From the NCBI GenBank assembly GCA_963796635.1, contig CAWCMH010000001.1:198296-262295 (forward strand): a stretch of DNA of 64,000 nt, read 5' to 3'. Below the pieces are notes generated by a model. That model saw only the letters and a list, made by a program, of their open reading frames with translations. It ran no database searches and was not told the DNA's origin. This DNA comes from an uncultured Gemmatimonadales bacterium. Its GTDB lineage: Bacteria; Gemmatimonadota; Gemmatimonadetes; Gemmatimonadales; GWC2-71-9. Below are positions 11,594 through 56,960 of this stretch, one piece after another (position 1 is the first letter of the stretch; each line of letters starts with the position of its first letter). The translations under genes were made by a program, and so were the position numbers.

Positions 11594-11601
11594 GTCACGC
11601 T

Positions 11602-15505: not shown

Positions 15506-15513
15506 CCCGGGCT

Positions 15514-20333: not shown

Positions 20334-20351
20334 GCCGCGCGTGACCGAGAG

Positions 20352-36081: not shown

Positions 36082-36155
36082 CCAGCGAAAAAATCACCAC
36101 AAAAAAGAATCCCACCTGCATTGCAATCGCAGATGGGACAACCACTTGGAGCTAG

Positions 36156-36229
36156 TGGGCCCGACAGGAGTCGAACCTGCGACCTCTTGCGCCGGAGGCA
36201 AGCGCTCTATCCAGCTGAGCTACGGACCC
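36156..36229 (-). tRNA. tRNA-Arg (anticodon CCG)
   Basis: Manual cloverleaf: acceptor GGGTCCG/CGGGCCC, D arm GCTC-AGCTGGATA-GAGC, anticodon arm CTTGC-CTCCGGC-GCAAG (U33, CCG at 34-36), T arm GCAGG-TTCGACT-CCTGT, discriminator A. 74 nt, no encoded CCA. Confidence 0.9.
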
Positions 36230-36764
36230 GTGCTGCGGCGGGAACTTTACCGGATCGCGCGCGGCGGAGCAACCCGCCGCCGCTCCGGCGTCCCACCCCC
36301 GAAACACTGAAACCCGCGCCGCCCCGCTGCGTACCGCTTTCCATTCCTCTCCCGAGACGCCGATGCTCGACGCGCTGACGCAGGACGCGCGCTTGGCCGC
36401 CCCACCGCACAGGGTGACAATCTCCCCACTGTCGTCCCGAGCGCAGTCGCCGCAGTCGAGGGATCTCGGAGATACGCGTTGATGCCGGCGTCGCTGAAGC
36501 GACGGCTCGGCACTGCGAAGGCGCTTCCGCGCCTGCGCGTTCGGACAGCGATCCCTGACTGATCTCGGGGTGGCAGCAGGACGGCCAGGCGCGACCGCGG
36601 CTCGGCTGCCCACGCCGTCATCGGAGACGGCTACCGTGGGCGGACCAGCGCTGCGGTGCGGAGCAGTTTCTCGTCACTCGCCCGCCACAGTGTGTCGGTT
36701 TCAGGCTACACCATTTCGGCGCACGTAGTCATCCCCGTCAAGGACACAGTGCGAAGCTAGACGT

Positions 36765-37600
36765 TCACGCCGCGATGGGCCTCGGCAAATAGGTGCGGGG
36801 CGGCGCGCCACCGAGGCTGCTGTGCGGCCGCTCCGTGTTGTACATCTCCCGCCACTGCTCCGTCACCTGGCGCACCTCGGCCAGCGAGGTGAAGACCCAA
36901 GCGTCCAACACTTCGGTGCGATACGTCCGGTTGAAGCGTTCGATGAAGGCGTTCTGATTCGGCTTCCCGGGCTGGATGTGGATCAACTCGACCCCGTGCG
37001 CGTCGCACCACGCGGCGAGCGCCGCCGCGATGAATTCCGGTCCATTGTCGCAGCGCAGGCGGTCGGGCGTGCCATGGATCGCCACCAGCTGGTCCAACAG
37101 TGCCACGACCCGGACACTCGGCAGCGACATATCGATCTCGTTCGCGAGCGCTTCGCGGTTGCCTTCATCGAGCACATTCAGGATGCGGTACTGCCGGCCG
37201 TCGTACAGGGTGTTCCCCATGAAATCGAGCGCCCACGTCCGGTTCAGGACCGCCGGGGCCTCCAGCGCCAGGCGCGGCCGCGTCAGCATGCGCTTCTTGC
37301 CGCGGCGCTTCAGATTCAGCCGCAGCGCACAGTACACCCGGTACACCCGCTTCGCGTTCCACGCGTGCCCCATCGCGCGCAACCGCTCGTAGCAGAGCCC
37401 GAAGCCCCACCGACTGTTCCGATCAACGAGCGCCAGGAGTGCCGTGACCACCGGCTGATCCCTGGCCGATCGATCGGCGGCGGGGCGATACCACGCTGTC
37501 CGCGAGAGTCCGGTGAGCTGGCAGGCCCGCACGATCGACCGCGCGTGCTCCTGCACCCGCATCGCCACGACGGCCCGACGCGCGGACAGCGCTACAGTTT
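36765..37600 (-). CDS. IS3-family transposase OrfB (rve/DDE), expressed via -1 frameshift from orfA
   Basis: DDE core WALDFMG...NVLDEGNRE...LRCDNGPEF...QPGKPNQNAFIERFNRTYRTE. It is in the -1 frame relative to orfA. An A4 run (complement of TTTT at 37598-37601) lies at the overlap. Confidence 0.8.
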
Positions 37601-37858
37601 TCGGCTGAGCACGTCCTTGATCGCCGCGTTCTCGAGCGCCAGCTCGGCGTACATCCGTTTGAGCTTGGCGTTCTCCTGCTCCAACTCCTTCAGCCGCCGC
37701 AGCTCCGGCACCGACGTGCCCCCGTATTTCGCCTTCCAGTTGAAATAGGTCGGGCGGCTGATGCCGTGCTTGCGGAGAATCTCCGCCACGGGCACTCCCG
37801 CCGCGCCTTCCTGCAGCACTGCCACGATCTGGGACTCGCTGAACTTCGACTTCCGCAT
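37592..37858 (-). CDS. IS3-family transposase OrfA (HTH + leucine zipper)
   Basis: MRKSKFSESQIVAVLQEGAAGVPVAEILRKHGISRPTYFNWKAKYGG...ELRRLKELEQENAKLKRMYAEL. Confidence 0.85.
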   Translation of the reverse strand: MRKSKFSESQIVAVLQEGAAGVPVAEILRKHGISRPTYFNWKAKYGGTSVPELRRLKELEQENAKLKRMYAELALENAAIKDVLSRKL

Positions 37859-38399
37859 TGCTCCTCCTGAGCAACGAAAAGTCTAACCTACGGTGTGTCC
37901 TGCGAGGGGAAGACTACGGAGCTATCACGGTTGATCTTCGTTCCCGCACCTATCAGTATCAGCCAGTGAAGAACTCGCGGGCGCGGAGGACCCCGTCACG
38001 TGCCAAGCGGCGTAGGTAGTGGGTTCGCCTGCGCGTTCGATACGAAGGCAATACGAACGGCCTAAGAATGGTCCCGCTGTAGGTATTGTGCGACACGCAG
38101 CACGAAACCATGTCGCACAACCGAAACCAGCGCTGTGGTTGGCGAAAACGGTTGCGAAGCGCACGCGCCGAAAACGGCTCAGTGCAGAGGTTTGCTAGGC
38201 CACTAGGAAAGACCATAGGAGTCGGGGATGGGACTTTCCCCAGTTCCTCGCGGGCATCGCGTACGGTAAGTTGCAAGTCGTTCTGATTAGCCAATGCGTG
38301 CTCAATGACCCATTTCGCGATCACTCCGTGCGGTGCGACGCACAAACCGTTTCTGCGAAGCTGACGTGCATCTGCTTTGGGCGAAGGAGGGGGGACGCA

Positions 38400-39668: not shown

Positions 39669-39687
39669 CCCGCTTCAAGGAGTTATT

Positions 39688-40152: not shown

Positions 40153-40220
40153 TTCCCCCTGACCGCAAGCGTTGAGGATTCGGGGGCTACCCGTTAGATG
40201 TTGGCGTCCAGAAGACTGGA

Positions 40221-41372
40221 GTGTGTTTCTTGAGTTGCGCGCAACAGCGATCGGCGATCGTTCTTGCGGCAACCTTGGTTGCCGCTTGCACCCATAGCGA
40301 CAGCTTCACGTACAGTGCGCCGGTGGTCGGACCGCGCTCCACCGGCGCGAGCGTCCAGCTCACCTTCAATGCCGATCAGGACTACTGGCCCTCGTGGACT
40401 CAGGACGGCAAGGGGATTCTCTACGCCTTTGTGCAGCCTGGCCCGTCGGTGATCCACCGGTGTCTCGGTCTCCTTCCCGCGTCGGGTGGCACGCGAGTCT
40501 GGGAGTTGTGCGACAACCGGGCTATTCGGTCCGATAGCGTGAGCAGCTACACCGGATACGCCCTCGACAGTACCGGCCATCTGCTGATCGCCGAAGCAGT
40601 CAGTTCCCGGTCGTTCAACTTCTCGCTTCACCCGCAGCTCTTTCTGACGGACACGGCGACGCCCTACGTTCGGTCCACTCTGTTGACACTGCCAGTGACT
40701 GAAGGGGATGTCGTGGTCAGCTGGTTGAGTGATATCGCCTGGACCGCTCCCAATAGTTTTGTTGCATTGGGTCAGCAGTTCGGCAGTGGCTCTCACTGCG
40801 AGCATTGTGGCTGCAGCCCATGCCCGACCGATTCCAACTATTACGGAAACGGCGTTGTCCTTGCAGGAATCATCGTCAACGGCCACGCGACCGTTCGGCC
40901 GGTGGCGGGGACCGACGGTGCCACGGGCTACGCACTCTCCGATGATCGCTTGTCCGTCGTCTTCACGCGTCTGAACGATGTGCGCTTGTTTCAGGTGCCG
41001 CTGGCCGGCGGCAATCCCATTACCCTCGCCACGGTCGTGCCCGATGCAGGGCGGGAGCTAATGGGAGTAGCCTGTCGGCACGGGACATGTCTAGTCGCAT
41101 ATACAAGGGTCAGCTTCGGCGGCGGCTTTACTCTACTTGAAGACAGCGCCTCGACCTTAGCTCGCGTCTCGCTCACCACTGGCGTTGTACAAGACATTGA
41201 ACCCTTCATTGGAATTGTCGCCACGCCGCAGGTGTCCGCAATATCTGGAGATGTTGTTGTGGAGGCGGGACCGGTGACGGCCGGGATGAACATCGCTCCT
41301 GTGCTCGGTCACTTGGCGACGTATGCCGGCGGAAACTCTGACTTATACCTCTATAAAACGGCGATCCCGTGA
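40221..41372 (+). CDS. TolB/PD40-like beta-propeller lipoprotein
   Basis: Lipobox LVAAC. PD40-like motif DYWPSWTQDGKGILYAF. The start is uncertain: GTG 40221, or TTG 40230 with GGAG upstream. Confidence 0.55.
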   Translation: MCFLSCAQQRSAIVLAATLVAACTHSDSFTYSAPVVGPRSTGASVQLTFNADQDYWPSWTQDGKGILYAFVQPGPSVIHRCLGLLPASGGTRVWELCDNRAIRSDSVSSYTGYALDSTGHLLIAEAVSSRSFNFSLHPQLFLTDTATPYVRSTLLTLPVTEGDVVVSWLSDIAWTAPNSFVALGQQFGSGSHCEHCGCSPCPTDSNYYGNGVVLAGIIVNGHATVRPVAGTDGATGYALSDDRLSVVFTRLNDVRLFQVPLAGGNPITLATVVPDAGRELMGVACRHGTCLVAYTRVSFGGGFTLLEDSASTLARVSLTTGVVQDIEPFIGIVATPQVSAISGDVVVEAGPVTAGMNIAPVLGHLATYAGGNSDLYLYKTAIP

Positions 41373-41579: not shown

Positions 41580-42701
41580 TCAGCGAGGCGACGTTTTACC
41601 TCTGAACGCTTCTATGTCAATCCCCGATCGTCCCGCTGCTTGTAGCATGGTCGTGATCGCATCACGCTGGAGCGCACGAAAGACGACGTTGGCCAGCTGA
41701 CGCTTGAGCGCTCGGAGGGCCTCCTTTGAGGATTTGCCTTCGCGGGTCTTTTTTGCCAGGTACGCTTGTGCCGGAGCGAAGCCCCGACGCTGAACCACGG
41801 CGACAACGTGCAGGACGTGGTTGAGTTGCCGATTGCCGCGTCGGCTTAGACGGTGCCGGCGTCGGTCGCCGCTTGAGGCCTCGAGCGGCGCCACACCCGC
41901 ATACGCGGCGAAGCGGGCCGCCGTCGGAAAGCGGTCGATATGATGGATGATCCCGACGAGTTTGGCCGCGCACAGCGGACCGACGCCATGGATGCTCAGA
42001 AGCGCCGGCGCGAGTTGGTCGGCGAGTACGCGGAGTTCCTGATCCAGCGCACGGATCATTTCGTCGTACATGAGGACCATGGCCGCGAGCTGGCCGACAA
42101 TCATCGTGCGGGCCTGCGTGAGCGAGGTCGACGCGGATGGCTTGGCTGCGGCGAGTTCGCGGAGCCAGGGCCGGTTCCGCCGCGCCTGAAACGCATACCG
42201 GGGCGCAGCGGGATGGGTGTGCGTCACGTGCGCGTACAACTGATTGAGGGCCGCCGTTCGGGCGAGGATCAGATTGTCGCGGTGCTCTGAGAGCACGTGA
42301 CAACGGGCGGGGGCGCCGTCGACCGCGATCGCCGGCAAGCGGTCGCCGTCCCGCAAGGTGACCCGCGCGATCGCCAAGGCGTCGGTGACATCCGATTTCT
42401 CGGCCTCGCGTCCCCGGCTGCGTCGGCGCTCGGCGGCTGTGGCGCTACCCGGCACTTCGACGACGACGGCTCCATGACGAATCAGGTGCTGCGCGAGCGC
42501 TCGTCCGTAGTGCATGGCCCCTTCAATGCCCCAGCGCCTGACGCCGCCAGCCACATCGAGGGCACTCGCCCACTCCTGACATTGCTGCGCTCCGATCGGC
42601 GTTGCCTCCGTCACGCACGCGTCGACCCGTCGACCCGTTTCATCCACCGCGACCGCCACCCAGCCATACTTGTGGGCGTCTACACCAATGACTACCGGCA
42701 T
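41580..42701 (-). CDS. IS110-family transposase
   Basis: The N-terminus MPVVIGVDAHK is DEDD_Tnp_IS110-like. The C-terminal Transposase_20 pattern is LLSIHGVGPLCAAKLVGIIHHIDRFPTAARFAAYAGVAPLEASSG. The last few codons run across the junction into IS3 sequence. Confidence 0.85.
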   Translation of the reverse strand: MPVVIGVDAHKYGWVAVAVDETGRRVDACVTEATPIGAQQCQEWASALDVAGGVRRWGIEGAMHYGRALAQHLIRHGAVVVEVPGSATAAERRRSRGREAEKSDVTDALAIARVTLRDGDRLPAIAVDGAPARCHVLSEHRDNLILARTAALNQLYAHVTHTHPAAPRYAFQARRNRPWLRELAAAKPSASTSLTQARTMIVGQLAAMVLMYDEMIRALDQELRVLADQLAPALLSIHGVGPLCAAKLVGIIHHIDRFPTAARFAAYAGVAPLEASSGDRRRHRLSRRGNRQLNHVLHVVAVVQRRGFAPAQAYLAKKTREGKSSKEALRALKRQLANVVFRALQRDAITTMLQAAGRSGIDIEAFRGKTSPR

Positions 42702-42908
42702 CGCAACCTCGGCGAAGGAGTGAAGCGGCTGCTGCGACATTTCTGTGTGAGGTCCGCATTCCCGGCGGAGTGCGTCACGCTTCTATCAAGTCAGCAGGAA
42801 CCGCGTCTCGATGCCGTTGGCGGCACGTCCAAATGAAGTGACCGAGCACAGAAAAAGAGTGAGCCAGCCAACGGCACCGAGATACTAACGCTTCCCAGGG
42901 TAACTCAC
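41603..42908 (-). mobile_element. IS110-family insertion sequence nested in IS3 orfA (ends approximate)
   Basis: The insert is delimited by the break in orfA homology (after ..ATFY at 41599, before KKKY at 42911). It carries a DEDD-type IS110 transposase. Exact termini cannot be fixed by eye. Confidence 0.7.
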
Positions 42909-43038
42909 AGAAGAAGAAGTACGCCCATCTGGGCGTGAGTGAGCTGCGCCGCTTGCGCCAAGTCGAGGACGAAAACCGGCGACTGAAACAGCTGGTCGCC
43001 GATCTCACCCTCGACAAGCACATGCTCAGCGAGGCGCT

Positions 43039-43908
43039 GCGAAAAAAAGTCTGAAGCCGACCCGCCGCCGGGAGCTGGCTACGTGGTTCCGCGACACGTA
43101 CCAGGTCAGCACCGTGCGGGCGTGTCGGCTCGCCCAGCTGAGTCGGACGGCGTGGTACCGCCGTCCGCAGGCGGAGGATCAGGCGGTGCTGCGGGCGCGC
43201 ATTCGGGAGCTGGCGCACGCGCGGCCGCGGTTCGGGTTTCTGCGCATCTGGGTCCTCCTGCGACGCGAGGGGTGGCTCGTGAACAAGAAGCGGGTGCGCC
43301 GGCTGTACCGCCTGGAAGGCTTGCAGGTGCGGATGCGCGTGCGGCGGCGCAAACACATCGCCTTGCACCGCGGCCCGGCGCCGCTGCCGGTCGCGGCGGA
43401 CGAGCGGTGGAGCATGGATTTTGTGCACGATCAGTTGGCCGACGCGCGCCCGTTTCGCGTGCTCACGGTGGTCGATCAGTGGAGTCGCTCCAGTCCGATC
43501 CTGGAGCCGGCGTTTTCGATCCGCGGACTGGACGTGGCGGACGCGCTCGATCACGCGATCGAGGACGGTCCGTCGCCGCGGTCCATCACGGTGGATCATG
43601 GCACCGAATTCATGTCGCGCGCGCTCGAAGACTGGGCGTACCGTCGCGGCGTGCAGCTCGACTTCACGCGACCCGGCAAGCCCACCGATAACGGGCACAT
43701 CGAGTCGTTCAATGGCCGGTTGCGGAATGAATGTTTGAACGTGCAGCAGTTCGTGTCGCTGGCCGATGCCCGGGAGAAGATCGAAGCGTGGCGACGCGAT
43801 TACAATCAAGTGCGACCCCACAGCTCGCTCGGGCACCTGACCCCGCAGCGAATTCATCACCGAAACCGTCAGGGACAACGGACCGCTGAAACCGCGTTAC
43901 TCTCATGA
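43039..43908 (+). CDS. IS3-family transposase OrfB (rve/DDE), -1 frame relative to orfA
   Basis: WSMDFVHD...TVVDQWSR...ITVDHGTEF...[21 protein letters not shown]...[11 protein letters not shown]. The -1 frame from the A7 run joins ..LRKK to [14 protein letters not shown]... Confidence 0.8.
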
Positions 43909-43936: not shown

Positions 43937-44905
43937 ATGCACCCCGAAAGTCTAGCTATAATCTGTCTACCGATTGGGGAGGGCTACGCCATGATTGCCG
44001 GCGATATCAACGGCGACGGCTTGGCGAATGACCGCGCCTTCATTCCAGCTAGTGGTGAAGGCGACAGCGGGATCCGCGATCAGCTGTCCGCGCTGTTGTC
44101 GTCTGCTCCACAGCTCGTTCGCAATTGCTTGACGGAGCAGCGTGGGCAAATAGCCGCCGCAAATTCTTGCCGCGGTCCATGGCAAACGCGGTTGGACATC
44201 AACATTGACTTTGTTCCCCCACGTGGTGTCGGTCTTGGTAACCGCCTGCACATCACGACTAAGCTGATCAACGTTGGCGCCGCACTGGAGCGCGGTCTCG
44301 GGCTTGGGGCTGGTACCACGATGGGTGCCTTTCCCGATCAAAGACTCCTCTACATAACAGGATTTGATCCTGCTACTGAATCCTTTCGATATCGGGTCAA
44401 TCAGCTGTTCGGCCAGCCTATAGGCACCAGCATGACGAACCATTTCCCTCCCTTTCAGCTTCAGTTGGGCGCGGAGTATCGGTTCAGCGAGGCACCCCAG
44501 AATCCGGTAGTAAAGGAGATGGGCCTGACCCAAACCGGCGACTCCGCAACGATGGCCCGTCACGTCCTCGATGCATTTCACCGGATCTCGAAAAATCCCA
44601 TCGATACCATCCTAGCCTTTAGGGACTCGCTTGAGCTGGACAAAACGCAGGTTGCTCTCCTGCGCGGCGATCGAGAGGAGTATGAGAGTCAGGTTGCAGC
44701 ACTATCCGCTCCATTAGTACCGCTGATCCTTCAACAAGGCAAGAGGCTAACCGATGATAACTTGACGTACGTTCTGATTCGCCTTCTCTCGTCGATTGAG
44801 CCAGCTCGGACGGCGACTCGCAACCGAGCGATCGCAAGGCTCAATCCGGCTCAGCTGCTGAAGCTTGACGCATTGCTCGCCTCGGACCGTTCCGGACATA
44901 ATTAG
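43937..44905 (+). CDS. Hypothetical protein, probably 5'-truncated by the adjacent IS
   Basis: The ORF's ATG overlaps the last base of the IS3 right end. The sequence begins mid-domain-like (..GDINGDGLANDRAFIP..). Lower GC. No signal peptide. Confidence 0.4.
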   Translation: MHPESLAIICLPIGEGYAMIAGDINGDGLANDRAFIPASGEGDSGIRDQLSALLSSAPQLVRNCLTEQRGQIAAANSCRGPWQTRLDINIDFVPPRGVGLGNRLHITTKLINVGAALERGLGLGAGTTMGAFPDQRLLYITGFDPATESFRYRVNQLFGQPIGTSMTNHFPPFQLQLGAEYRFSEAPQNPVVKEMGLTQTGDSATMARHVLDAFHRISKNPIDTILAFRDSLELDKTQVALLRGDREEYESQVAALSAPLVPLILQQGKRLTDDNLTYVLIRLLSSIEPARTATRNRAIARLNPAQLLKLDALLASDRSGHN

Positions 44906-45001: not shown

Positions 45002-48000
45002 CTATTTTCTTCCCGGCCCGAGCATTCGCGTAGGAGCGTCTGGTAGCAGCGGGACAAAAGGAATATTTAGCTGCGAACAGATGCTTTGTCGGACCTCCCG
45101 GCGCACGTCAAACAAGTGAAGATGCGTAACAACCAAACTGCGGAGCACTCGTTGTCCGAGGCCGTTGCGATCCAACCTGTCATATAAGGATCGGACCTCG
45201 GGCTCTGATAGCCCAGCCGCGCGCTGAAGCCTAATCGCCATCGTTATCAACTCGACTGCCGGCAGAGGGCTAAGTTTCGCAATATCGCTGAATACGGGGT
45301 CAAGCAGGGGCGTACCGACATCAGAGGCCGTACGCTGAACCATACTGTATGCCGTGATGTAAATCTGCCAGTACGCGGCGTTCTGAGCGGCTAAGACTAG
45401 GTCGTTTCCCGAAAGCTCGGGATGGCGATGCCGCACAGCCGCAACGACTTCTTCTGCCAGCTCGTGTGGTGAGTCTTGCAGGAGCTTGTGTACATAGCCG
45501 AGAACCCGACGTCCAACCCCGTAAACGGCTCGGGTGATCCTGTCCTTTTGATCCCCGGTGAGCGTCCCCGGAAAGTTCTTTAACACCTGTCCAAGAATCT
45601 TCATTGTTCGGAACGCAACTGAGAGGCGGGTCATGACGTCCACGACGCTCTGTAACGCCGCGTCGCGTTCGATGCGGCGAGCATCCAAACGCTCGGTCGC
45701 CACATCTGAACCTCCGATGGAGTCAAGGTCTTCTCGATCTAGCGCCGTCAGATATTCGCGACGGCCGTCAGCGGACGACCTATCAACATACGCCACGCTT
45801 GCCAGCGCCTCCTCCAATTGGGGAAGACGGGTCGATCCCGTCGAAAGATCTGCCGGTAGTGATTCAGCGAAGAGCGTAGCAGCTTGCTCGAGCATCGGAT
45901 CGAGAACCGCCGGATCTTTAGTGTGGTGTGTAAGAAACAGCAACGTGTTCGCGCTTTCCTGTTCGTGCAAATGCCGAGTCAACTCGCGCACGCGCGCCCG
46001 GCCAACCTCCGATCCGATCCGTTCAGCGAGTGCCCTGCTAGCAAAGTAGTTATTCAAGTAATCATACCGGAAGGCGATCTCGCCATTGGCTTCCTGCAAT
46101 ATTCCGCGTTTGATGAATGCGTCGACGAGATTACGAAAGCCCATTGGTAAGCGGCGGTCGTCAACGAAACGTTGGTGGAATGCCATCATCCATGCTTCAG
46201 TCCACCGCACCATCCGTTCCTCTGCCGCTTCGAACGCAAGTTGGGTGAGATATGCAAGCTGCACATCGATCTGTTGGATGGTTGCGCCAAGACCCACTAA
46301 CTGTCGCCGAATCAACAGGTCATAGTAGTACCCGTAAGTGCTCTGCTGCAGGTTGAGTGACTCTTGGAAAGCACGACCTTGCAAGATTGCGATTACCGAG
46401 ACTGGCGTCGGAGGCGCGCCATACTGACCCACAGCAACGCCGAGAATGCGCCGCATATCAGCACGAAGTTCATCCGCAGCCGCGGCATCGACGACATCAG
46501 CCATGACGACGTACCGATCAATCAGTTCTTCGCGGCGAACAAACCCCATGGGAAGCAGCCGAAATTGAGCAAACGGCGTTCCGCCCCGAAGCGACGGCAC
46601 AATTCCAGCGATTTGATTGACTAGCTGGGCGAGATCATTGGAGAACAGGACGGTTGTGTCGGCCAACCGGGAGAGTCGATCGATGGCTGCTGACACACCG
46701 ATGGATGAGGCTGAGATGGAGGATGCGTCATCAACGAGCAAGATTCGTTTGTCCATGCTCACTTCCCATAACCCAGCTTCTTCGGCAACATATTGGTCCG
46801 CGAAGGCGCGGGCCACTTCGCGGCGATCATGATCGTCACCTTCCAAAGTGAGATGGCTGCCATCGAGAAAAATCGGCACCAAACCAGCGTCCAGTGCAGC
46901 CAGGAACATTCGCTTCGCTAGTACGGTCTTGCCGCTTTCGTCTGATCCGGTAATCAGGATCCGCTTGCGATCGATAGCCAGGTCCAGCAGATCCTCCCCA
47001 GGGTGAACCTTCGCTCGCGTCTCGACTGGAGCGGCGGTCACTTCACGCAGGTCAGGATAGACAAAGATGTCATCGAGGGCGAGTTGACCGCGCGTGGGAT
47101 GCAGTAGTGTGGTACCTGGGTCGACAAGGCGTTGTCGCATCGTCGGCGTAAGTGGGAAAGCGTGCCCGGCCCTCAACGGATTGACAGAGAACGCACTCCA
47201 AGACGCCGTCGCGCAATTTAGATCACCGACGTACGCGGTCCGATGCCACTGGAACGGAATGACTCGGTATTCCTGGCCCGCGCTGTTGATCTCGAGTATG
47301 TTGAACGCGCTGGGTCGCGGATGGCCATCACCTTGGAGCGCGACTCCCTCTATGTGAACAGCTTCACCGCCGAGTTCGTCCAGCAAGTGACTGACGCCGA
47401 ACTCGTGTTCGTGCCCGGTTAGAATGAAATCAGATGTCGATTGCAGTTGTCGGCGTACGACTCGCGTATTGCCAATGGCGAGCCAATTGTATGTGTGGTG
47501 CATCATTGAAATCACGACAGTGTCGCGTGGATCACTAGAAGCAGGGGCCGCCGGTTCAATGGACGATTCGGGAAACATCAAGCGTGTGGGTTGCTCGGGA
47601 ATCTGAGAAACCCACGCGGTGTTTAGGCACCGGATGCACAGCCGCCCTGAACTGCCTTCAACCAGATACTCGTAGTACAAGCGCGGCGTCGCATCAGAGA
47701 GTCCTTCGGCGGCGATGGCGTCCCTAAACCGAAAGAATGATTGTTGCGGCTGGACGCAAATCGCCGCCGTTGCTGGATCGTCTGCCAGATGCGGCTCTCG
47801 TAGCATGGCGTCTATAAGCACTGCGCGAGCAGGAGATACTTCGTGCAGGGCGCAATCGTGATTACCGGGCACGACGGCGACAAGAACTCGCGTGCTTGGT
47901 CGAAAGACAATGCTAAGCGACCCGCAAAGGGCGGATAGCCATGCACTCGCAAGCTCATACTGTTCGGCGAGACCGCTGTTTGCAATGTCGCCGCTCAGTG

Positions 48001-48130
48001 CCAGCAGGCACACGTCTGGATCAGATGCCAAATCTCGGACTGCCGAGACGATGTGTTCCACTCGACCGAGAACCGGATCGTTTTCCTCCCGAATGTGAAT
48101 GTCGCTAAGGTGTAGCACGAGGATCTGCAT
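45002..48130 (-). CDS. Metallophosphoesterase - P-loop NTPase - helical C-terminal region fusion protein (STAND-like architecture)
   Basis: Start set at MQILVLHLSDIHI (48130). All four calcineurin-like MPE motifs are present: SDIH (DxH), LSGDIAN (GD), VPGNHD (GNHD), LTGHEHE (GHxH). Walker A GSDESGKT lies at aa 395-402 (nt 46925-46948). Walker B ILLVDDAS lies at about aa 462-469. About 550 aa of helical C-terminus have no recognised domain. It is a single gene in a lower-GC patch. Confidence 0.75.
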   Translation of the reverse strand: MQILVLHLSDIHIREENDPVLGRVEHIVSAVRDLASDPDVCLLALSGDIANSGLAEQYELASAWLSALCGSLSIVFRPSTRVLVAVVPGNHDCALHEVSPARAVLIDAMLREPHLADDPATAAICVQPQQSFFRFRDAIAAEGLSDATPRLYYEYLVEGSSGRLCIRCLNTAWVSQIPEQPTRLMFPESSIEPAAPASSDPRDTVVISMMHHTYNWLAIGNTRVVRRQLQSTSDFILTGHEHEFGVSHLLDELGGEAVHIEGVALQGDGHPRPSAFNILEINSAGQEYRVIPFQWHRTAYVGDLNCATASWSAFSVNPLRAGHAFPLTPTMRQRLVDPGTTLLHPTRGQLALDDIFVYPDLREVTAAPVETRAKVHPGEDLLDLAIDRKRILITGSDESGKTVLAKRMFLAALDAGLVPIFLDGSHLTLEGDDHDRREVARAFADQYVAEEAGLWEVSMDKRILLVDDASSISASSIGVSAAIDRLSRLADTTVLFSNDLAQLVNQIAGIVPSLRGGTPFAQFRLLPMGFVRREELIDRYVVMADVVDAAAADELRADMRRILGVAVGQYGAPPTPVSVIAILQGRAFQESLNLQQSTYGYYYDLLIRRQLVGLGATIQQIDVQLAYLTQLAFEAAEERMVRWTEAWMMAFHQRFVDDRRLPMGFRNLVDAFIKRGILQEANGEIAFRYDYLNNYFASRALAERIGSEVGRARVRELTRHLHEQESANTLLFLTHHTKDPAVLDPMLEQAATLFAESLPADLSTGSTRLPQLEEALASVAYVDRSSADGRREYLTALDREDLDSIGGSDVATERLDARRIERDAALQSVVDVMTRLSVAFRTMKILGQVLKNFPGTLTGDQKDRITRAVYGVGRRVLGYVHKLLQDSPHELAEEVVAAVRHRHPELSGNDLVLAAQNAAYWQIYITAYSMVQRTASDVGTPLLDPVFSDIAKLSPLPAVELITMAIRLQRAAGLSEPEVRSLYDRLDRNGLGQRVLRSLVVTHLHLFDVRREVRQSICSQLNIPFVPLLPDAPTRMLGPGRK

Positions 48131-48388: not shown

Positions 48389-49024
48389 TTACTCTTGCTC
48401 ATCGCGAAATTGCCGCTCGGCCCAGCGGATCAGCTGGGCTTTGCCATGAATCCCCAGTCGCCGCGTGAGCGTGGCCACGTGATATTCGACCGTCTTGGTC
48501 GAAATGTCGAACTCGGCGGCGATGTTGGCATACGAGTGGCCGGAGCGGAGGCGCGCCAACACGCTGCGCTGGCGTTCCGACAGGTGGATGGGACTGGCCG
48601 CATCCGGAAACGCGCCACCACCCGCGCCCCGGCGTTGCATCATCGGCGTCACATAGGTTCGCCCGGCGAGAGCCTCGTCGATCGCGATCCGCAATTCGGC
48701 CGGCGCGGATTCTTTGACAATGTATGCCACGGCTCCGGCACGCAGCGCCGCGTCGGCGAGGACCGGGTCCGCGTGCGCCGTGAGAATGACGAACCGTGTT
48801 TCCGCATACCGAGCCACCAAACGGGGCAAAGCCTCGAGCGCGCTGACCTTGCCGAAGGCGAGATCAAGCAGAACGATTTGAGGGGACGTGCGGGAGATTC
48901 CGCTTTCAAGTCCATCGAGTCCAGTAACGATGCCCACCACTTGGTACCAGCGGCCGAGCGACGATGAAAGTGCCTCAGCGATGAGCGCATGGTCATCGGC
49001 CACAAGGACGGTGGGCCGGGTCAC
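48389..49024 (-). CDS. NarL/LuxR-family response regulator
   Basis: REC domain (VLVADDHALIAE...IVLLDLAFG...). C-terminal LuxR HTH (LSERQRSVLARLRSGHSYANIAAEFDISTKTVEYHVATLTRRLG). Confidence 0.85.
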   Translation of the reverse strand: MTRPTVLVADDHALIAEALSSSLGRWYQVVGIVTGLDGLESGISRTSPQIVLLDLAFGKVSALEALPRLVARYAETRFVILTAHADPVLADAALRAGAVAYIVKESAPAELRIAIDEALAGRTYVTPMMQRRGAGGGAFPDAASPIHLSERQRSVLARLRSGHSYANIAAEFDISTKTVEYHVATLTRRLGIHGKAQLIRWAERQFRDEQE

Positions 49025-49770
49025 GAGGCTTTCCCCGGCCGCGGTATCATGGCGACCACCCGGGTTCCCTTGTGCGGTGCGCTTTCGATCCGGAGGCTTC
49101 CGCCCAGAATGCCGAGACGCTCCCGCATTGAAGCGATGCCGATCCCAGGCCCAGCGATCCGGCGACTTGCGTCAAAGCCGCAACCGTGATCTTCGATGAT
49201 CAGAGTTATGGTTGTGGGATCCTGTCGCAGTTCCATGCGCACGCGATCGACGCCTGCGTGCCGTGCAACATTTCCAAGAGCCTCCTGGGCGACCCGGTAA
49301 AGGGCGAGCCGTTGGGGCGGGGCCGCGCCATCGAACAACGAGCCGGTGATGTAGTCGACGGTCATGTTTTCGCGGTCACCTAGGGTCACGGCCAAGTCGC
49401 GCATCGCGGCGTCCAAGCCAACGTGGTCGAGCAGGGTGGGGTGAATGCTGCGGGCGAAGCCGCGCAAATGGTCCGCCAGTTGATCGAGGCGCGCCGCCAT
49501 TGCCGTTACGGCTGGCAGGTCGCAGGCCTGCGCTTGCAGGGTCAGCGTGATCAGTGTCTGCACGATGTCATCATGCAGTTCTCGGGCGATTGCGGCGCGT
49601 TCCTCATCCTGGGCTGTCAGCAACCTCCCGCCGAGGAAGGCACGGGCTTTCAGCAGCCGGCGTCGTTGCACCACTGCGGACGCGATGAGCAACCACACCA
49701 GGAGCGTGGCCACCACCGAACCGGTGATTAGGATCGCGAGCAGGACGTTCTCGTGATGAACCGGCGTCAC
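49021..49770 (-). CDS. Histidine kinase core (HisKA_3 + HATPase_c) with one TM helix
   Basis: GTG start at 49770 overlaps the upstream stop (GTGA). H-box ARELHDDIVQTL. ATPase boxes EALGNVARHA, DHGCGF and GPGIGIASMRERL. 4-nt overlap with the response-regulator gene. Confidence 0.7.
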   Translation of the reverse strand: MTPVHHENVLLAILITGSVVATLLVWLLIASAVVQRRRLLKARAFLGGRLLTAQDEERAAIARELHDDIVQTLITLTLQAQACDLPAVTAMAARLDQLADHLRGFARSIHPTLLDHVGLDAAMRDLAVTLGDRENMTVDYITGSLFDGAAPPQRLALYRVAQEALGNVARHAGVDRVRMELRQDPTTITLIIEDHGCGFDASRRIAGPGIGIASMRERLGILGGSLRIESAPHKGTRVVAMIPRPGKAS

Positions 49771-50435
49771 GGCTGCGGCCCCGTCGAGTCGGCGGACGGC
49801 AGGAACAGTGCCCGGATGAGAATCACTTCGGCCAGTGAAGCCAGCAGATTGCACATTGCATAATATCGCTCCACATACCCTAACATGTCGCGGATCAGCA
49901 GCTGTACCATCAGTGTCTGCAGCGATGATGCGACGCCGTAGCCCGAGAGCCCGGCCGCGATCAGGAATCCGGGATCGACAAGCGTGTCTACCCGTCCAAA
50001 CCACGCGCGCTGCCGAAGAGTCGCGATGGCTGGCACCAGAATGACGAGTGAATGCAATGGGTTCAGGTAGGTCGAATACGACGTGACCGGCTCGACGGTG
50101 AGCAATAACGTGACCCAGGTCACGGCGTAGCCCAGCATGAGCGCGCGAATCAACGTTGCGCGGCGACGGGTGAGTTGGTAGGACGCCAGCGCTTCGAGCG
50201 CGAAGATCACGGCCATAAGGATCCAGACGTGGGCGATGGTCTGGCTGTTGTGTGCCACCCGGGCCGCGGCGAATGATGCCGCGTCCAACAAGGCGGCACA
50301 GCCAAACCACAGCGTGATCGCGCGTTGGCCGCGTCTACTCAGGCGCCACCGCACCGACCCGACGATGAAACCGGTCAGTTCGAGCGCGGACATTCCGTAC
50401 TCAATGACGAGGCTCCAGTCCACCGACCTGATCAT
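49767..50435 (-). CDS. Multi-pass membrane protein (possible detached sensor domain of the kinase)
   Basis: 222 aa with 6-7 hydrophobic helices. Ends in a GTGA overlap with the kinase-core ORF, in a different frame. Confidence 0.6.
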   Translation of the reverse strand: MIRSVDWSLVIEYGMSALELTGFIVGSVRWRLSRRGQRAITLWFGCAALLDAASFAAARVAHNSQTIAHVWILMAVIFALEALASYQLTRRRATLIRALMLGYAVTWVTLLLTVEPVTSYSTYLNPLHSLVILVPAIATLRQRAWFGRVDTLVDPGFLIAAGLSGYGVASSLQTLMVQLLIRDMLGYVERYYAMCNLLASLAEVILIRALFLPSADSTGPQP

Positions 50436-51274: not shown

Positions 51275-52590
51275 GGTACAGACTGAGGACATGGGTTACA
51301 CGTTGGACCGAGGACATCGGTTACACCTGCGTTAGATCCGGTTCCGATTGTGCGCGCCGTGCATCCGATAATCTCGCTCATCCAGCCGCCCCAGCAAGAG
51401 GTCGCCGAAATACACCGACCAGATGCCATCGGCGACCTCATCGAGTCCGACGTACTCCTCCGCCAGGACGTGGCTCACGTTCACCCACCGATGCTGCCAA
51501 CGGATGCCGCCGTTGGTCGAGACATACCGGGTCTCGTAGTGGCGCGGGTACTCTGGGCTCCGGATCGTCCGTGGGTACGCGCGTGGCGAGGCGACGTAGT
51601 GCTGCGCCGGCGGTTCCTGGCCGAGGGCCTCGTGGGGCCGCTCCGTGTTGTAGTCCTGCTGAAAGGCATCGAAGCGACGTTGCTGACCACGGGGCGTCTG
51701 GGCCGCGGGTCGCGTCGCTTCCGCCTTCAGCGTGCGATGCATCCGTTCATGCCGCCCATTCTGTTCGGGGTGCGCAGGCTGAATGAGCTCCGGCGTGATG
51801 CCCAGCTTCAGCCACCACACACTGAGCGCCGAGAGTCGACCCAGCGCGCACGTCGCAAAGGGGGTGCCGTTGTCGCTGCGAATGCGATCCGGCAAACCAT
51901 ACGTCCGGAAGATCCGCTCGAAGACGCTCCGCGCACCGACACTCGCCGTCGACGGCAAGCCGTGACACGCCAGCAAATAGCGCGAGTAGCCATCGACGAT
52001 GGTGAGTGGATAGCAGTACGCGCCGGTGCCCAAGCGAAACTGTCCCTTGAAATCGACGGTCCACAGCGCGTTCGGCGCGTCCATCGGGGTGGTCGGTCGC
52101 CCGGGATGGCCGGGCGCAGGACGCCGCCGGCGGGCGCGCACCAGCCCTTCTCGCTTGAGCAGCGCGCCCACCGTACTCGCGACCGGCCATGGGTCGCGTC
52201 GCGGATGCCGCCGTGCGAGATAGGCCAGCAGCTTGCGCGGACCCCACGTCGGATGCGCCTGCCGCGTGCGCACAACCAGCGCCGCGAGCTCCCCATCCAA
52301 GAGTGTCGGGCTCGTCACCGGCCGTCGCGAGTGCTCTACGAATCCCGCCGCGCCCTCGACCTGGAATCGCCGCCACCATTTGTGACCGGTCTTTCGACTG
52401 ATGCCGAACCGCGCACAGAGCTCCGTCATCTGCCAGTGCTCGCGCGCAAACGCCTCGACAAAATCCTGCCGCTGCGACATAGGGGTCTCCACTCTCCACG
52501 GCATCACGCACCTCCTCGGTGCATGAAACCAACTTGAGAAGTGTTACCTATGTCCTCGGTCTATCTGTTACCGATGTCCCCGACTGCTCC
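51275..52590 (-). mobile_element. IS481-family insertion sequence, copy C (1316 bp)
   Basis: Same ends as copies A and B. One synonymous difference in the transposase gene (His codon CAT vs CAC). 3-bp direct repeat TCT at 51272-51274 and 52591-52593. The right end lies 7 nt from a TGCTAAC motif (complement of GTTAGCA 51261-51267). Confidence 0.9.
51332..52507 (-). CDS. IS481-family DDE transposase
   Basis: 391-aa product identical to that of copies A and B. Confidence 0.9.
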   Translation of the reverse strand: MMPWRVETPMSQRQDFVEAFAREHWQMTELCARFGISRKTGHKWWRRFQVEGAAGFVEHSRRPVTSPTLLDGELAALVVRTRQAHPTWGPRKLLAYLARRHPRRDPWPVASTVGALLKREGLVRARRRRPAPGHPGRPTTPMDAPNALWTVDFKGQFRLGTGAYCYPLTIVDGYSRYLLACHGLPSTASVGARSVFERIFRTYGLPDRIRSDNGTPFATCALGRLSALSVWWLKLGITPELIQPAHPEQNGRHERMHRTLKAEATRPAAQTPRGQQRRFDAFQQDYNTERPHEALGQEPPAQHYVASPRAYPRTIRSPEYPRHYETRYVSTNGGIRWQHRWVNVSHVLAEEYVGLDEVADGIWSVYFGDLLLGRLDERDYRMHGAHNRNRI

Positions 52591-54458: not shown

Positions 54459-54509
54459 GACACCGCTCCTGCTGTAGTTTAGTGTACGAGGGCGATCGAG
54501 GTTGTTCCG

Positions 54510-55648: not shown

Positions 55649-55689
55649 CGTAGTCTCCCCCGTCAAGGACACAGTGCGTCGCTAGACTT

Positions 55690-56525
55690 TCACGCCGCGA
55701 TGGGCCTCGGCAAATAGCTGCGGGGCGGCACGCCACCGAGGCTGCTGTGCGGCCGCTCCGTGTTGTACATCTCCCGCCACTGCTCCGTCACCTGGCGCAC
55801 CTCGGCCAGCGAGGTGAAGACCCAAGCGTCCAACACTTCGGTGCGATACGTCCGGTTGAAGCGTTCGATGAAGGCGTTCTGATTCGGCTTCCCGGGCTGG
55901 ATGTGGATCAACTCGACCCCGTGCGCGTCGCACCACGCGGCGAGCGCCACTGCGATGAATTCCGGTCCATTGTCGCAGCGCAGGCGGTCGGGCGTGCCAT
56001 GGATCGCCACCAGCTGGTCCAGCAGTGCCACCACCCGGACACTCGGCAGCGACATATCGATCTCGTTCGCGAGCGCTTCGCGGTTGCCTTCATCGAGCAC
56101 ATTCAGGATGCGGTACTGCCGGCCGTCGTACAGGGTGTCCCCCATGAAATCGAGCGCCCACGTCCGGTTCAGGACCGCCGGGGCCTCCAGCGCCAGACGC
56201 GGCCGCGTCAGCACACGCTTCTTGCCACGGCGCTTCAGATTCAGCCGCAGCGCACAGTACACCCGGTACACACGCTTCGCATTCCACGCGTGCCCCAACG
56301 TGCGCAACCGCTCGTAGCAGAGCCCGAAGCCCCACCGACTGTTCCGATCAACGAGCGCCAGGAGTGCCGTGACCACCGGCTGATCCCTGGCCGATCGATC
56401 GGCGGCGGGGCGATACCACGCTGTCCGCGAGAGTCCGGTGAGCTGGCAGGCCCGCACGATCGACAGCGCGTGCTCCTGCACCAGCATCGCCACGACGGCC
56501 CGACGCGCGGACAGCGCTACAGTTT
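55690..56525 (-). CDS. IS3-family transposase OrfB (rve/DDE)
   Basis: Homologue of 36765..37600. A4 run at the overlap (complement of TTTT at 56523-56526). Confidence 0.8.
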
Positions 56526-56783
56526 TCGGCTGAGCACGTCCTTGATCGCCGCGTTCTCGAGGGCCAGCTCGGCGTACATCCGCTTCAGCTTGGCGTTCTC
56601 CTGCTCCAACTCCTTCAGCCGCCGCAGCTCCGGCACCGACGTGCCCCCGTATTTCGCCTTCCAGTTGAAATAGGTCGGGCGGCTGATCCCATGCTTGCGG
56701 AGAATCTCCGCGACCGGCACCCCCGCTTGACCTTCCTGCAACACCGCCACGATCTGGGACTCGGTGAACTTCGATTTCCGCAT
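56517..56783 (-). CDS. IS3-family transposase OrfA
   Basis: 88 aa, 86/88 identical to the product of 37592..37858. Confidence 0.85.
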   Translation of the reverse strand: MRKSKFTESQIVAVLQEGQAGVPVAEILRKHGISRPTYFNWKAKYGGTSVPELRRLKELEQENAKLKRMYAELALENAAIKDVLSRKL

Positions 56784-56960
56784 TGCTCCTCCTGAGCAAC
56801 GGAAAGTCTAACTCACGCTGTATCCGATCAGGGGAAGACTACGCGCACACCCCCCGCAATTGTACTGTTTCGTGGTGCGACACGCGGGCATGGGAAATGC
56901 TCAGGCCACTCCGGAATGAGGTACAGGTATCGTGGCTGACCCCTCAACGGAGTTCAATCC

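What the first reader, a model, noticed from the sequence alone, without database searches (positions are those of the whole stretch)
45002..48130. Orphan 1042-aa metallophosphoesterase + P-loop NTPase + helical C-terminus protein: candidate single-gene STAND/Avs-like defence system
Seen in sequence:
- An N-terminal ~250-aa calcineurin-like phosphoesterase has all four metal-binding motifs intact: LSDIH, SGDIAN, PGNHD and TGHEHE.
- Next comes a linker, then a P-loop NTPase with Walker A GSDESGKT (nt 46925-46948) and Walker B ILLVDDAS.
- About 550 residues of helical sequence follow, with no motif I recognise.

Context:
- The gene stands alone and converges with its neighbour.
- It lies in the lowest-GC patch of the window (30/60 G+C in line 46321-46380, versus 37-41/60 in the core lines I counted).
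- It is inside an IS-bounded mobile block next to a tRNA.

Inference: the order effector, NTPase, then sensor-like repeats is that of antiviral STAND (Avs/bNACHT-type) proteins. A calcineurin-type phosphoesterase as effector is not one of the named types I can recall.
Basis: partly seen in the sequence, partly recalled or inferred. Interest (0 to 1): 0.8.

Follow-up and report, generated by a model that had tools for sequence, protein, structure and literature searches.

The report
Divergent DS-8 anti-phage STAND protein

Summary
An intact 1042-aa gene lies on the minus strand at 48130..45002. It encodes an N-terminal metallophosphatase with every metal-binding motif, a STAND P-loop NTPase, and a helical C-terminus. 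It sits in the lowest-GC kilobase of the window, inside a block bounded by two IS3-family copies next to tRNA-Arg.

The system is not unnamed. The protein matches NCBIfam NF053861.1 "DS8_antiphage" end to end (766 bits; cut-off 790) and PADLOC candidate PDC-S60. DS-8 (E. coli WP_032203427.1) was shown to protect against phage, and D52A, N84A and K375A abolished defence. These residues align to identical D48, N90 and K401 here.

About 1,470 50%-identity clusters carry the C-terminal domain. Members are scattered over at least ten phyla and some plasmids, with no conserved neighbour. The same NTPase plus C-terminal chassis also occurs with caspase, TIR or glycosyltransferase N-termini.

Open points:
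- The phosphodiesterase substrate is unknown.
- The C-terminal domain is non-repetitive, as conserved as the enzyme domain, and has no structural relative in the PDB.
- A class II ribonucleotide reductase lies directly upstream in three independent lineages.

Verdict: a new member of a known kind, of modest interest.

The parts
45002..48130 (-). DS-8-like gene, 1042 aa plus stop. It is intact and collinear with homologues of 1,015-1,065 aa.
47231..48130 (-). Effector module, aa 1-300: a calcineurin-like metallophosphatase core (Pfam aa 5-243) plus a beta-rich cap. Metal ligands are D10, H12, D48, N90, H91, H211, H240 and H242.
   Evidence: Pfam. Ligands invariant in 65 sequences. Fold matches SMPDL3B, GpdQ, Rv0805, Lmo2642 and YydB. 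Variants with other effectors match the DS-8 HMM only from model position 301.
47000..47230 (-). Conserved pre-NBD segment, aa 301-377. It contains the family motif DPG..HP....L.L.DIFVYPDL and belongs to the chassis, not to the effector.
   Evidence: PADLOC PDLC05050 match starts at aa 330
46541..46999 (-). STAND nucleotide-binding domain, aa 378-530. Walker A GSDESGKT is at nt 46925-46948 (K401). Walker B ILLVDDAS is at nt 46721-46744 (D467 invariant).
   Evidence: fold matches the NACHT modules of NLRC4, NLRP3, NOD2 and NLRP9
45875..46540 (-). Helical and winged-helix arms of the STAND module, aa 531-752. Includes R533 (64/65) and P573/P576 (64/65 and 65/65). The Pfam nSTAND_NTPase4 hit is at aa 650-697.
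45062..45775 (-). C-terminal all-alpha domain, aa 786-1023, presumed sensor or regulatory domain. It contains the most conserved 20-residue stretch of the protein (TMKILGQVLKNFPGTL, nt 45560-45607), with D798, G847 and R875 invariant.
36724..37918 (-). Context: left copy of the IS3-family element (369-aa rve transposase) bounding the low-GC block.
55649..56843 (-). Context: right copy of the same IS3-family element, a direct repeat 96% identical to the left copy.
36155..36229 (-). Context: tRNA-Arg(CCG), about 500 nt outside the left IS3 copy.
48389..50310 (-). Context only: a LuxR-type response regulator (48389-49024) and a HisKA_3 histidine kinase (49021-50310), upstream on the same strand. 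Such a pair is not among the recurrent neighbour families at homologues' loci.

Best explanation
The gene encodes a divergent member of the DS-8 family, a one-protein anti-phage immune receptor of the STAND NTPase class.

Shown for the E. coli prototype by others: it protects against phages, and it needs both the metallophosphatase metal ligands and the Walker A lysine.

Shown here: the window protein has the same three-part architecture from end to end. It keeps those exact residues and every other metal ligand. It lies in a foreign-looking, IS-bounded, low-GC block. It belongs to a patchily distributed, non-syntenic family whose NTPase plus C-terminal chassis is also found fused to caspase, TIR and glycosyltransferase domains.

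Inferred mechanism, by analogy with Avs, bNACHT and NLR proteins:
1. The protein rests in an autoinhibited, nucleotide-bound state.
2. An infection cue is read by the C-terminal helical domain.
3. NTP-dependent oligomerisation of the STAND module brings the N-terminal metallophosphatase domains together and switches them on.
4. Hydrolysis of a phosphodiester or phosphoanhydride substrate stops phage replication, possibly at the cost of the cell.

The substrate is more likely a nucleotide-type small molecule than DNA. The fold is closest to the Rv0805, GpdQ and SMPDL3 phosphodiesterases.
For: Family assignment:
- NCBIfam NF053861.1 DS8_antiphage matches aa 7-1023 to model 1-994/994 (E 4.9e-230, 766 bits).
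- The window's first 399 aa score 324 bits on that model, against 342 bits for the same part of the validated E. coli protein.
- PADLOC PDC-S60 matches at E 2.4e-59.
- BLASTP against the published E. coli DS-8 N-terminus gives E 1e-38, aligning D52/N84/K375 with D48/N90/K401. These are the three residues whose mutation abolished defence.

Structure:
- The AlphaFold2 model has pLDDT 86.
- Its N-terminus matches SMPDL3B, GpdQ, Rv0805 and Lmo2642, and its centre matches NLRC4, NLRP3 and NOD2.
- All metal ligands and the Walker B aspartate are invariant in 65 members.

Distribution and context:
- There are 72 genome loci across at least ten phyla.
- No neighbour family is shared by more than 4 of 47 loci.
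- Neighbours include type I restriction-modification genes, methyltransferases, PD-(D/E)XK, Fic, integrases and transposases.
- Full-length copies occur on plasmids.
- The N-terminal effector is swapped for caspase, GT4-conflict or TIR in other chassis members.
- The gene is low in GC and GC3 and lies between IS copies.
Against: - No experiment exists for this protein or for any member of its clade.
- It is only 26% identical to the validated protein over the N-terminal 430 aa, and it falls 24 bits below NCBI's equivalog cut-off.
- The trigger, the oligomeric state and the substrate are unknown even for E. coli DS-8.
- The C-terminal domain is as conserved as the catalytic domain. That is unusual for a domain thought to track fast-evolving phage proteins.
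- Many homologues sit among housekeeping genes rather than in defence islands.
- Expression in this host was not assessed. The promoter and terminator scan was at chance level.
Confidence: 0.78

Rival explanations
1. Same defence receptor, but the metallophosphatase acts as a nuclease on phage or host DNA/RNA (Mre11/SbcD-like chemistry), as the nuclease effectors of many Avs proteins do, rather than on a small nucleotide.
For: The family profile gives weak sequence hits to SbcD and Mre11 over aa 3-92 (E 0.014-0.08). PADLOC's generic 'Effector / Endonuclease' model PDLC00736 matches aa 4-248 at E 8e-8. GpdQ-like enzymes are promiscuous phosphodiesterases (general knowledge).
Against: No Mre11 or SbcD structure is among the 50 best Foldseek matches. 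Small-molecule phosphodiesterases (SMPDL3B, Lmo2642, GpdQ, Rv0805, acid sphingomyelinase, purple acid phosphatase) fill the list. The SbcD/Mre11 sequence hits cover only the universal motifs I-III. No DNA-binding capping domain was recognised.
Confidence: 0.15
2. Same receptor, but the effector degrades a cyclic (oligo)nucleotide signal, as the DS-8 authors proposed from the resemblance to human SMPDL3A, which cleaves cGAMP. It could remove a phage-made or host signalling nucleotide.
For: The authors' proposal. The fold resembles SMPDL3B and the cyclic-nucleotide phosphodiesterases Rv0805 and Lmo2642. Several homologues carry the JGI name 'CpdA 3',5'-cyclic AMP phosphodiesterase'.
Against: No cyclase or other signal-generating partner is conserved next to the gene. 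Destroying a signal is usually a counter-defence or damping activity, not an obvious way to stop a phage. No substrate has been identified.
Confidence: 0.25
3. Not immunity: a regulated housekeeping or signalling phosphodiesterase, for example one under the adjacent two-component system, that happens to carry a STAND ATPase.
For: A LuxR-type response regulator and a histidine kinase lie 258 nt upstream on the same strand. Some homologues neighbour housekeeping genes, including ribonucleotide reductase.
Against: A two-component pair is not a recurrent neighbour family among 147 neighbours of homologues. The distribution is patchy across phyla and includes plasmids. The composition is foreign and the gene is flanked by IS elements. 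A direct relative is experimentally anti-phage. The chassis is shared with caspase and TIR effectors typical of conflict systems.
Confidence: 0.04
4. A silent passenger: an intact-looking but unexpressed or non-functional gene carried along in an IS-rich island.
For: The block holds at least four transposase genes and eight ORFs with no known relatives. No promoter-like site was found upstream.
Against: The reading frame is complete, full length and collinear with homologues. All 10 invariant catalytic and Walker positions are kept. The promoter scan covers only the sigma-70 consensus and is uninformative in a 65% GC genome.
Confidence: 0.08

Closest known systems
DS-8 (DefensePredictor discovered system 8; E. 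coli WP_032203427.1, 1014 aa; Science 2026, doi 10.1126/science.adv7924; NCBIfam NF053861.1)
   Same: A single polypeptide of about 1,000 aa. It has an N-terminal metallophosphatase, a NACHT-like STAND NTPase and the same C-terminal helical domain, with an end-to-end HMM match. The three residues shown to be essential (D52, N84, K375) are identical here (D48, N90, K401).
   Different: Only 26% identity over the N-terminal 430 aa. The score of 766 bits is below the 790-bit equivalog cut-off. The host is a high-GC environmental bacterium whose nearest relatives are in Gemmatimonadota MAGs. The protein is untested.
PADLOC candidate system PDC-S60 (models PDLC05050 and PDLC05051, PADLOC-DB v2.0.0)
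   Same: The NTPase plus C-terminal chassis matches PDLC05050 at E 2.4e-59 (aa 330-1023). The metallophosphatase plus early NTPase region matches PDLC05051 at E 2e-22 (aa 5-468).
   Different: Neither model matches end to end, so the PADLOC seeds carry other N- or C-terminal parts. It is a candidate system, and no paper mentioning it was found.
Bacterial NLR-related proteins (bNACHT) and eukaryotic NLRs (NLRC4, NLRP3, NOD2)
   Same: The domain order is effector, then NACHT-like NTPase, then C-terminal domain. Foldseek matches NLRC4 at E 3e-9 and also NLRP3, NLRP9 and NOD2. The DS-8 authors report an HHblits hit to bNACHT01 at probability 99.8.
   Different: No Pfam NACHT or PADLOC bNACHT model matched at E <= 1. 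Pfam instead assigns nSTAND_NTPase4. Walker B is hhhhDD rather than the NACHT D-[GAS]-x-D-E pattern (pattern recalled from memory). The C-terminus is not LRR, TPR or WD40.
Avs / AVAST antiviral STAND ATPases
   Same: The logic is the same: a single-gene STAND protein with an N-terminal effector that is exchangeable within the family.
   Different: No Avs model matched. The Avs sensors are TPR-like repeat domains that bind phage terminase or portal proteins. Here the C-terminal domain is non-repetitive, conserved and of unknown fold. The effector is a metallophosphatase.
DS-9A (anti-phage phosphoesterase, NCBIfam NF053862.1)
   Same: A metallophosphatase domain required for defence. There is a weak match to aa 5-96 (E 6e-7).
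   Different: It is the first gene of a two-gene system with a HAD phosphatase and has no STAND NTPase. The score of 29 bits is far below the 420-bit cut-off.
SMPDL3A/B, Rv0805, GpdQ and Lmo2642 phosphodiesterases; B. subtilis YydB (PDB 9a6c_B)
   Same: The fold of the binuclear metallophosphatase core and its metal-ligand motifs. YydB is the best structural match (E 3e-14), and it forms a complex with a separate protein, YydD.
   Different: These are stand-alone enzymes, or a two-protein complex in the case of YydB, with no fused STAND module. Sequence identity is only 12-16%. No function of YydB was found in the searched literature.

Membership tests
DS-8 anti-phage protein family (NCBIfam NF053861.1) | One polypeptide with an N-terminal metallophosphatase, a central STAND/NACHT-like NTPase and the family's C-terminal helical domain, collinear over the full length. 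| tested here: met
   The HMM match covers aa 7-1023 and model 1-994/994. Domain folds are confirmed. Coverage is 98-100% against homologues of 1,015-1,065 aa.
DS-8 anti-phage protein family (NCBIfam NF053861.1) | Score at or above NCBI's curated equivalog cut-off (790 bits). | tested here: inconclusive
   The score is 766 bits, 3% below the cut-off. Its two closest relatives that were scored reach 791 and 801 bits, and central members reach 958-1008 bits. On the N-terminal 399 aa the window scores 324 bits against 342 for the validated E. coli protein. The cut-off is an annotation threshold, not a biological property.
DS-8 anti-phage protein family (NCBIfam NF053861.1) | Conservation of the residues shown by mutation to be required for defence (D52, N84, K375 of E. 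coli DS-8). | tested here: met
   A direct BLASTP alignment gives D48, N90 and K401. The mutant list comes from Table S11 of the paper.
DS-8 anti-phage protein family (NCBIfam NF053861.1) | Acts alone, with no obligatory partner gene. | tested here: met
   Among 47 loci, no neighbour family is shared by more than 4. This shows the absence of a conserved partner, not sufficiency.
DS-8 anti-phage protein family (NCBIfam NF053861.1) | Protects cells against phage infection. | not testable with these tools
   This needs cloning and plaque assays. Only the E. coli prototype has been tested.
STAND NTPases, nSTAND4 group (Pfam PF24406) | P-loop NBD with Walker A and B, followed by helical and winged-helix arms. 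Pfam nSTAND_NTPase4 above its gathering score. | tested here: met
   PF24406 scores 33.6 bits against a gathering score of 27. G400, K401 and D467 are conserved. The NBD-HD-WHD fold aligns to NLR NACHT modules.
NACHT clade in the strict sense (Pfam PF05729; bNACHT of PADLOC) | A match to the NACHT sequence models, and the NACHT-type Walker B (a small residue after the catalytic Asp, with acidic residues two positions on; pattern recalled from memory). | tested here: not met
   No PF05729 hit and no PADLOC bNACHT hit at E <= 1. Walker B is VDDAS, with D468 acidic in 53 of 65 members (D 51, E 2). The resemblance to NACHT is structural and reported by HHblits in the paper.
Avs (AVAST) types 1-5 | A match to Avs models, and a C-terminal TPR-like repeat sensor. 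| tested here: not met
   There is no Avs hit in PADLOC at E <= 1 and no TPR or other repeat family in Pfam. A self-BLAST of the C-terminal domain found no repeat. Foldseek hits to TPR proteins have probability <= 0.2.
   The ATPase is STAND, not ABC or Rad50. SbcD and Mre11 appear only as weak hits to aa 3-92 (E 0.014-0.08) and are absent from the 50 best fold matches.
Calcineurin-like metallophosphoesterase superfamily (Pfam PF00149) | Motifs D-x-H, G-D, G-N-H-D/E, H and G-H-x-H that bind a binuclear metal centre. | tested here: met
   PF00149 scores 30.9 bits against a gathering score of 21.5. All ligands are present and invariant in the family.

The most novel reading that the evidence does not exclude
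DS-8-type proteins may not sense a variable phage protein at all. Their C-terminal domain is non-repetitive, has no relative among solved structures and contains the best-conserved stretch of the whole protein. It might bind a conserved ligand, such as a nucleotide-pool or replication-stress signal. The metallophosphatase might then attack (deoxy)nucleotides. The repeated, independent placement of these genes directly downstream of class II ribonucleotide reductase in three phyla would then be a functional link rather than an insertion hot spot.
Probability: 0.12. Interest if true: 0.6.

Novelty: new member of a known kind. Interest (0 to 1): 0.3.

Why it matters
The case mainly confirms that reading raw sequence can recover a real immune gene.

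For the field, the protein extends DS-8 from Enterobacteria to a divergent, high-GC clade whose nearest relatives are Gemmatimonadota. The analysis also adds four family-level points that could guide mechanism work on DS-8:
- The effector/chassis boundary lies at about residue 300.
- The same chassis carries caspase, TIR and glycosyltransferase effectors.
- The presumed sensor domain is unusually conserved and structurally unassigned.
- There is a recurrent ribonucleotide reductase adjacency.

The substrate of a metallophosphatase immune effector remains an open biochemical question.

Tried and rejected
- **Plus-strand reading of the coordinates:** rejected because it is full of stops.
- **The longer 1088-aa start at 48268:** rejected because homologues begin at the position of 48130.
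- **SbcCD or Mre11-like repair fusion:** rejected.
- **Avs or bNACHT membership by sequence models:** no hits.
- **TPR, LRR or WD40 repeat sensor:** not found.
- **A two-component system as functional partner:** not a recurrent neighbour family at other loci.
- **The two three-ORF sets in the block (465/154/383 aa and 462/170/383 aa) as duplicated cassettes:** no similarity by BLASTP.
- **Genome scans:** the single-protein scan found nothing, and the 65-sequence alignment was too diverse for pattern design. A 12-sequence alignment worked.
- **Full-length E. coli DS-8:** could not be retrieved. The paper's table truncates it at 399 aa, and the database search returned only fragments and a 635-aa Citrobacter relative.
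- **Source organism:** could not be named. Exact-protein look-ups returned nothing or only an unnamed Logan contig. The IS3 transposases are not close to those of Gemmatimonadota loci.
- **Literature:** searches for PDC-S60, YydB/YydD function and nSTAND4 gave nothing useful.
- **Promoter and terminator scan:** at chance level.
- **Phage genomes:** no homologue.


Full report
**1. The observation**

The finding's coordinates enclose a real, intact gene, but it is on the minus strand. The plus-strand translation is full of stops. The minus strand gives an open frame from 48268 or 48130 down to the stop at 45002-45004.

The 1042-aa start at 48130 (MQILVLHLSDIH) follows a G-rich stretch. It coincides with the N-termini of 64 aligned homologues, while the 46-residue extension has no counterpart.

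- LSDIH at aa 8-12
- SGDIAN at aa 46-51
- PGNHD at aa 88-92
- TGHEHE at aa 238-243
- Walker A GSDESGKT at aa 395-402, which is exactly nt 46925-46948
- Walker B ILLVDDAS at aa 463-470

Pfam reports Metallophos over aa 5-243, and above its gathering score the STAND marker nSTAND_NTPase4 at aa 650-697.

The composition claims hold. The 46-47 kb bin is the lowest-GC kilobase of the window (55.1%, against 62-70% outside the block). The gene's third-position GC is 0.59, against 0.74-0.79 for a flanking core ORF and the IS transposases.

**2. Context in the window**

A self-comparison shows two direct copies of an IS3-family element at 36724-37918 and 55649-56843 (96% identical). It also shows three 99.9%-identical copies of an IS481-family element, one of them inside the block at 51275-52590 (transposase domains). 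An IS110 transposase lies at 41580-42740. The window's only tRNA, tRNA-Arg(CCG), lies at 36155-36229, about 500 nt outside the left IS3 copy. 'IS-bounded block next to a tRNA' is therefore correct. No tyrosine integrase was found in the ORFs scanned.

Downstream, an ORF at 43937-44905 converges on the gene. It has no relative in Pfam, PADLOC, NCBIfam or PDB sequences.

Upstream on the same strand, 258 nt away, are a LuxR-type response regulator and a HisKA_3 histidine kinase. Such a pair is not among the recurrent neighbour families at other loci. I treat it as incidental, though co-transcription was not excluded.

**3. What the protein is**

NCBIfam gives an end-to-end match to NF053861.1, 'DS8_antiphage', an equivalog model. 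It covers aa 7-1023 and model positions 1-994 of 994, with E 4.9e-230 and 766 bits against a curated cut-off of 790. PADLOC matches its candidate system PDC-S60 (E 2.4e-59 for aa 330-1023, and E 2e-22 for aa 5-468) and no Avs or bNACHT model.

The name DS-8 comes from the DefensePredictor study (bioRxiv January 2025; Science 2026; PMC13092281). [quoted passage not shown] It reduced phage plating when cloned in E. coli MG1655. Mutation of two metallophosphatase residues or of a residue critical for the NACHT ATPase 'completely ablated defense'. Its substrate 'remains to be identified'. The mutants were D52A, N84A and K375A.

The paper's Table S8 gives the first 399 residues of DS-8. BLASTP against the window protein gives E 1e-38 and 26% identity over 431 columns. 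D52, N84 and K375 align to identical D48, N90 and K401.

As a control, that E. coli fragment scores 342 bits on positions 2-407 of NF053861.1. The window's first 399 residues score 324 bits on positions 1-381. The window protein therefore fits the model about as well as the validated protein does over that part. The two closest relatives that I scored reach 791 and 801 bits, and more central family members reach 958-1008 bits. This clade sits at the edge of the model, which explains the 24-bit shortfall.

E. coli DS-8 is 24-31% identical to every environmental member I hold, so the window protein is not unusually distant.

**4. Structure**

An AlphaFold2 model built on 65 family sequences is confident (mean pLDDT 86.1, pTM 0.71). 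Foldseek against the PDB returns two kinds of match:
- **N-terminus:** B. subtilis YydB (E 3e-14), SMPDL3B (E about 1e-7), Lmo2642, GpdQ, Rv0805, acid sphingomyelinase and purple acid phosphatases.
- **Centre:** the NACHT modules of NLRC4 (E 3e-9), NLRP9, NOD2 and NLRP3.

No Mre11 or SbcD structure is in the best 50. In a profile search of PDB sequences they appear only weakly, over motifs I-III (E 0.014-0.08).

By sequence models the NTPase is nSTAND4 rather than canonical NACHT. There is no PF05729 hit, and Walker B is hhhhDD. I therefore call it NACHT-like.

**5. The family**

The whole protein finds 181 clusters at 90% identity. Nearly all are 1,000-1,065 aa with the same two Pfam domains. 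The best non-self hit is 53% identical.

A genome scan found 72 loci in Gemmatimonadota (the nearest, at 41-45%), Verrucomicrobiota, Acidobacteriota, Chloroflexota, Bacteroidota, Planctomycetota, Myxococcota, Nitrospirota, Actinomycetota and several classes of Pseudomonadota.

I called ORFs in 46 loci with a full-length match plus the window block, and clustered all 723 proteins. The DS-8-like gene was the only family common to all loci, and the next family occurred in 4 loci. So there is no conserved partner and no synteny, which is the opposite of the 'housekeeping' refutation.

Among 147 immediate neighbours there are defence-type and mobile-element genes: type I restriction-modification subunits, other methyltransferases, ResIII and SNF2 helicases, PD-(D/E)XK, Fic, integrases and transposases. 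There are also plain housekeeping genes: gyrase/topoisomerase IV subunit A, DnaB, chaperonin and fatty-acid synthesis. I did not compute an enrichment statistic.

Full-length members lie on Clostridium botulinum and Paenisporosarcina plasmids. None was found in 50,697 phage records.

**6. Modularity**

Searching 1.84 billion representatives with the C-terminal 283 residues gave 1,467 hits at E <= 1e-3 and 799 at E <= 1e-10. Most are about 1,030 aa with the domain at the same place. Some carry other N-termini:
- a caspase domain (P0201)
- a 'GT4-conflict' glycosyltransferase (P0188)
- several unannotated N-termini
- a TIR domain, on Vibrio parahaemolyticus and Lactococcus plasmids

The caspase and glycosyltransferase proteins match the DS-8 HMM only from model position 301 onward, and PADLOC PDLC05050 matches from aa 330. 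The effector therefore ends at about residue 300. The segment aa 301-377, with its conserved DIFVYPDL motif, belongs to the chassis.

**7. The C-terminal domain**

- It has long helices, one of 44 residues.
- It shows no internal repeat and no repeat family in Pfam.
- Modelled alone with high confidence (pLDDT 89.5), it has no significant fold match in the PDB (best E 0.26, TM <= 0.24) or in viral proteins.
- It is as conserved as the enzyme domain (mean column conservation 0.444 against 0.457).
- It holds the most conserved 20-residue window of the protein, aa 841-860 (ILGQxLKNFPG). D798, G847 and R875 are invariant.

This does not fit a sensor that tracks variable phage proteins, and it remains unexplained.

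**8. Mechanism**

- **Shown by others for the prototype:** anti-phage activity that depends on the metallophosphatase and Walker A residues.
- **Shown here:** conservation of the architecture and of those residues, mobile and foreign context, a patchy non-syntenic distribution, and effector swapping.
- **Inferred:** the C-terminal domain detects a cue, NTP-dependent oligomerisation follows, the metallophosphatase is activated by proximity, and hydrolysis of a nucleotide-type substrate halts the phage.

The preference for a small-molecule substrate over a nuclease activity rests only on fold neighbours and is weak.

**9. Verdict**

The window protein is a new, divergent, untested member of a known kind. 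Interest is modest (0.3). It rests on the unsolved substrate, the odd C-terminal domain and the ribonucleotide reductase adjacency noted in passing.

Noticed in passing
L002:2037-4580, L010:7431-9887, L014:6990-9980, L017:6986-9982 (all + strand, directly upstream of the DS-8-like gene): A class II-type ribonucleotide reductase (Ribonuc_red_lgC + TSCPD, with or without Ribonuc_red_2_N) lies immediately upstream on the same strand. The gap is 18-125 nt in 4 of 46 loci. These come from three phyla, and their DS-8-like proteins are only 25-28% identical between lineages, so there are at least three independent associations. This could be an insertion hot spot or a link to the nucleotide pool. It is not seen in the window.
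   Followed up: partly
window 38271-41372 (+), 42775-43878 (-), 43937-44905 (+), 52541-55653 (+): Eight ORFs of 154-465 aa share the IS-bounded low-GC block. None has a match in Pfam, PADLOC or NCBIfam, and the four tested have no match in PDB sequences. Their GC3 (0.58-0.69) resembles that of the DS-8-like gene rather than the core. They may be uncharacterised accessory or defence genes, and some may be spurious ORFs.
   Followed up: partly
window 10277-11719, 14189-15629, 51275-52590 (inverted): Three copies of an IS481-family element are 99.9% identical over 1,316 nt, which points to recent transposition. The first two copies are 98.3% identical over 1,445 nt and lie only 2.5 kb apart.
   Followed up: partly
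window 13773-13852 / 16693-16772 / 20351-20414; 11605-11718 / 12917-13034: Short dispersed repeats of 65-120 nt, 81-92% identical, lie in the 11-20 kb region next to the IS481 copies. Their nature is unknown.
   Followed up: no
P0201 (981 aa), P0188 (1195 aa), L073:4795-7416 (873-aa TIR protein on a Vibrio parahaemolyticus plasmid): The DS-8 NTPase plus C-terminal chassis is fused to a caspase domain (NCBIfam 'caspase, EACC1-associated type'), a GT4-conflict glycosyltransferase, or a TIR domain in place of the metallophosphatase. I found no experimental work on these variants in the literature I searched.
   Followed up: partly
PDB 9a6c_B (B. subtilis YydB, in a YydD-YydB model): This is the best structural match of the whole protein (E 3e-14, 508 aligned columns). 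YydB is a stand-alone metallophosphatase that pairs with a separate protein, YydD. It is possibly a split analogue of the DS-8 arrangement. The literature search gave no function.
   Followed up: no
window 48389-50310 (-): A LuxR-type response regulator and a HisKA_3 histidine kinase sit inside the same IS-bounded block, directly upstream of the DS-8-like gene on the same strand.
   Followed up: partly
P0267 (Citrobacter amalonaticus, 635 aa): The closest database relative of the E. coli DS-8 N-terminus (81% identical) is only 635 aa long. It lacks the C-terminal third and may be a truncated or decayed copy.
   Followed up: no
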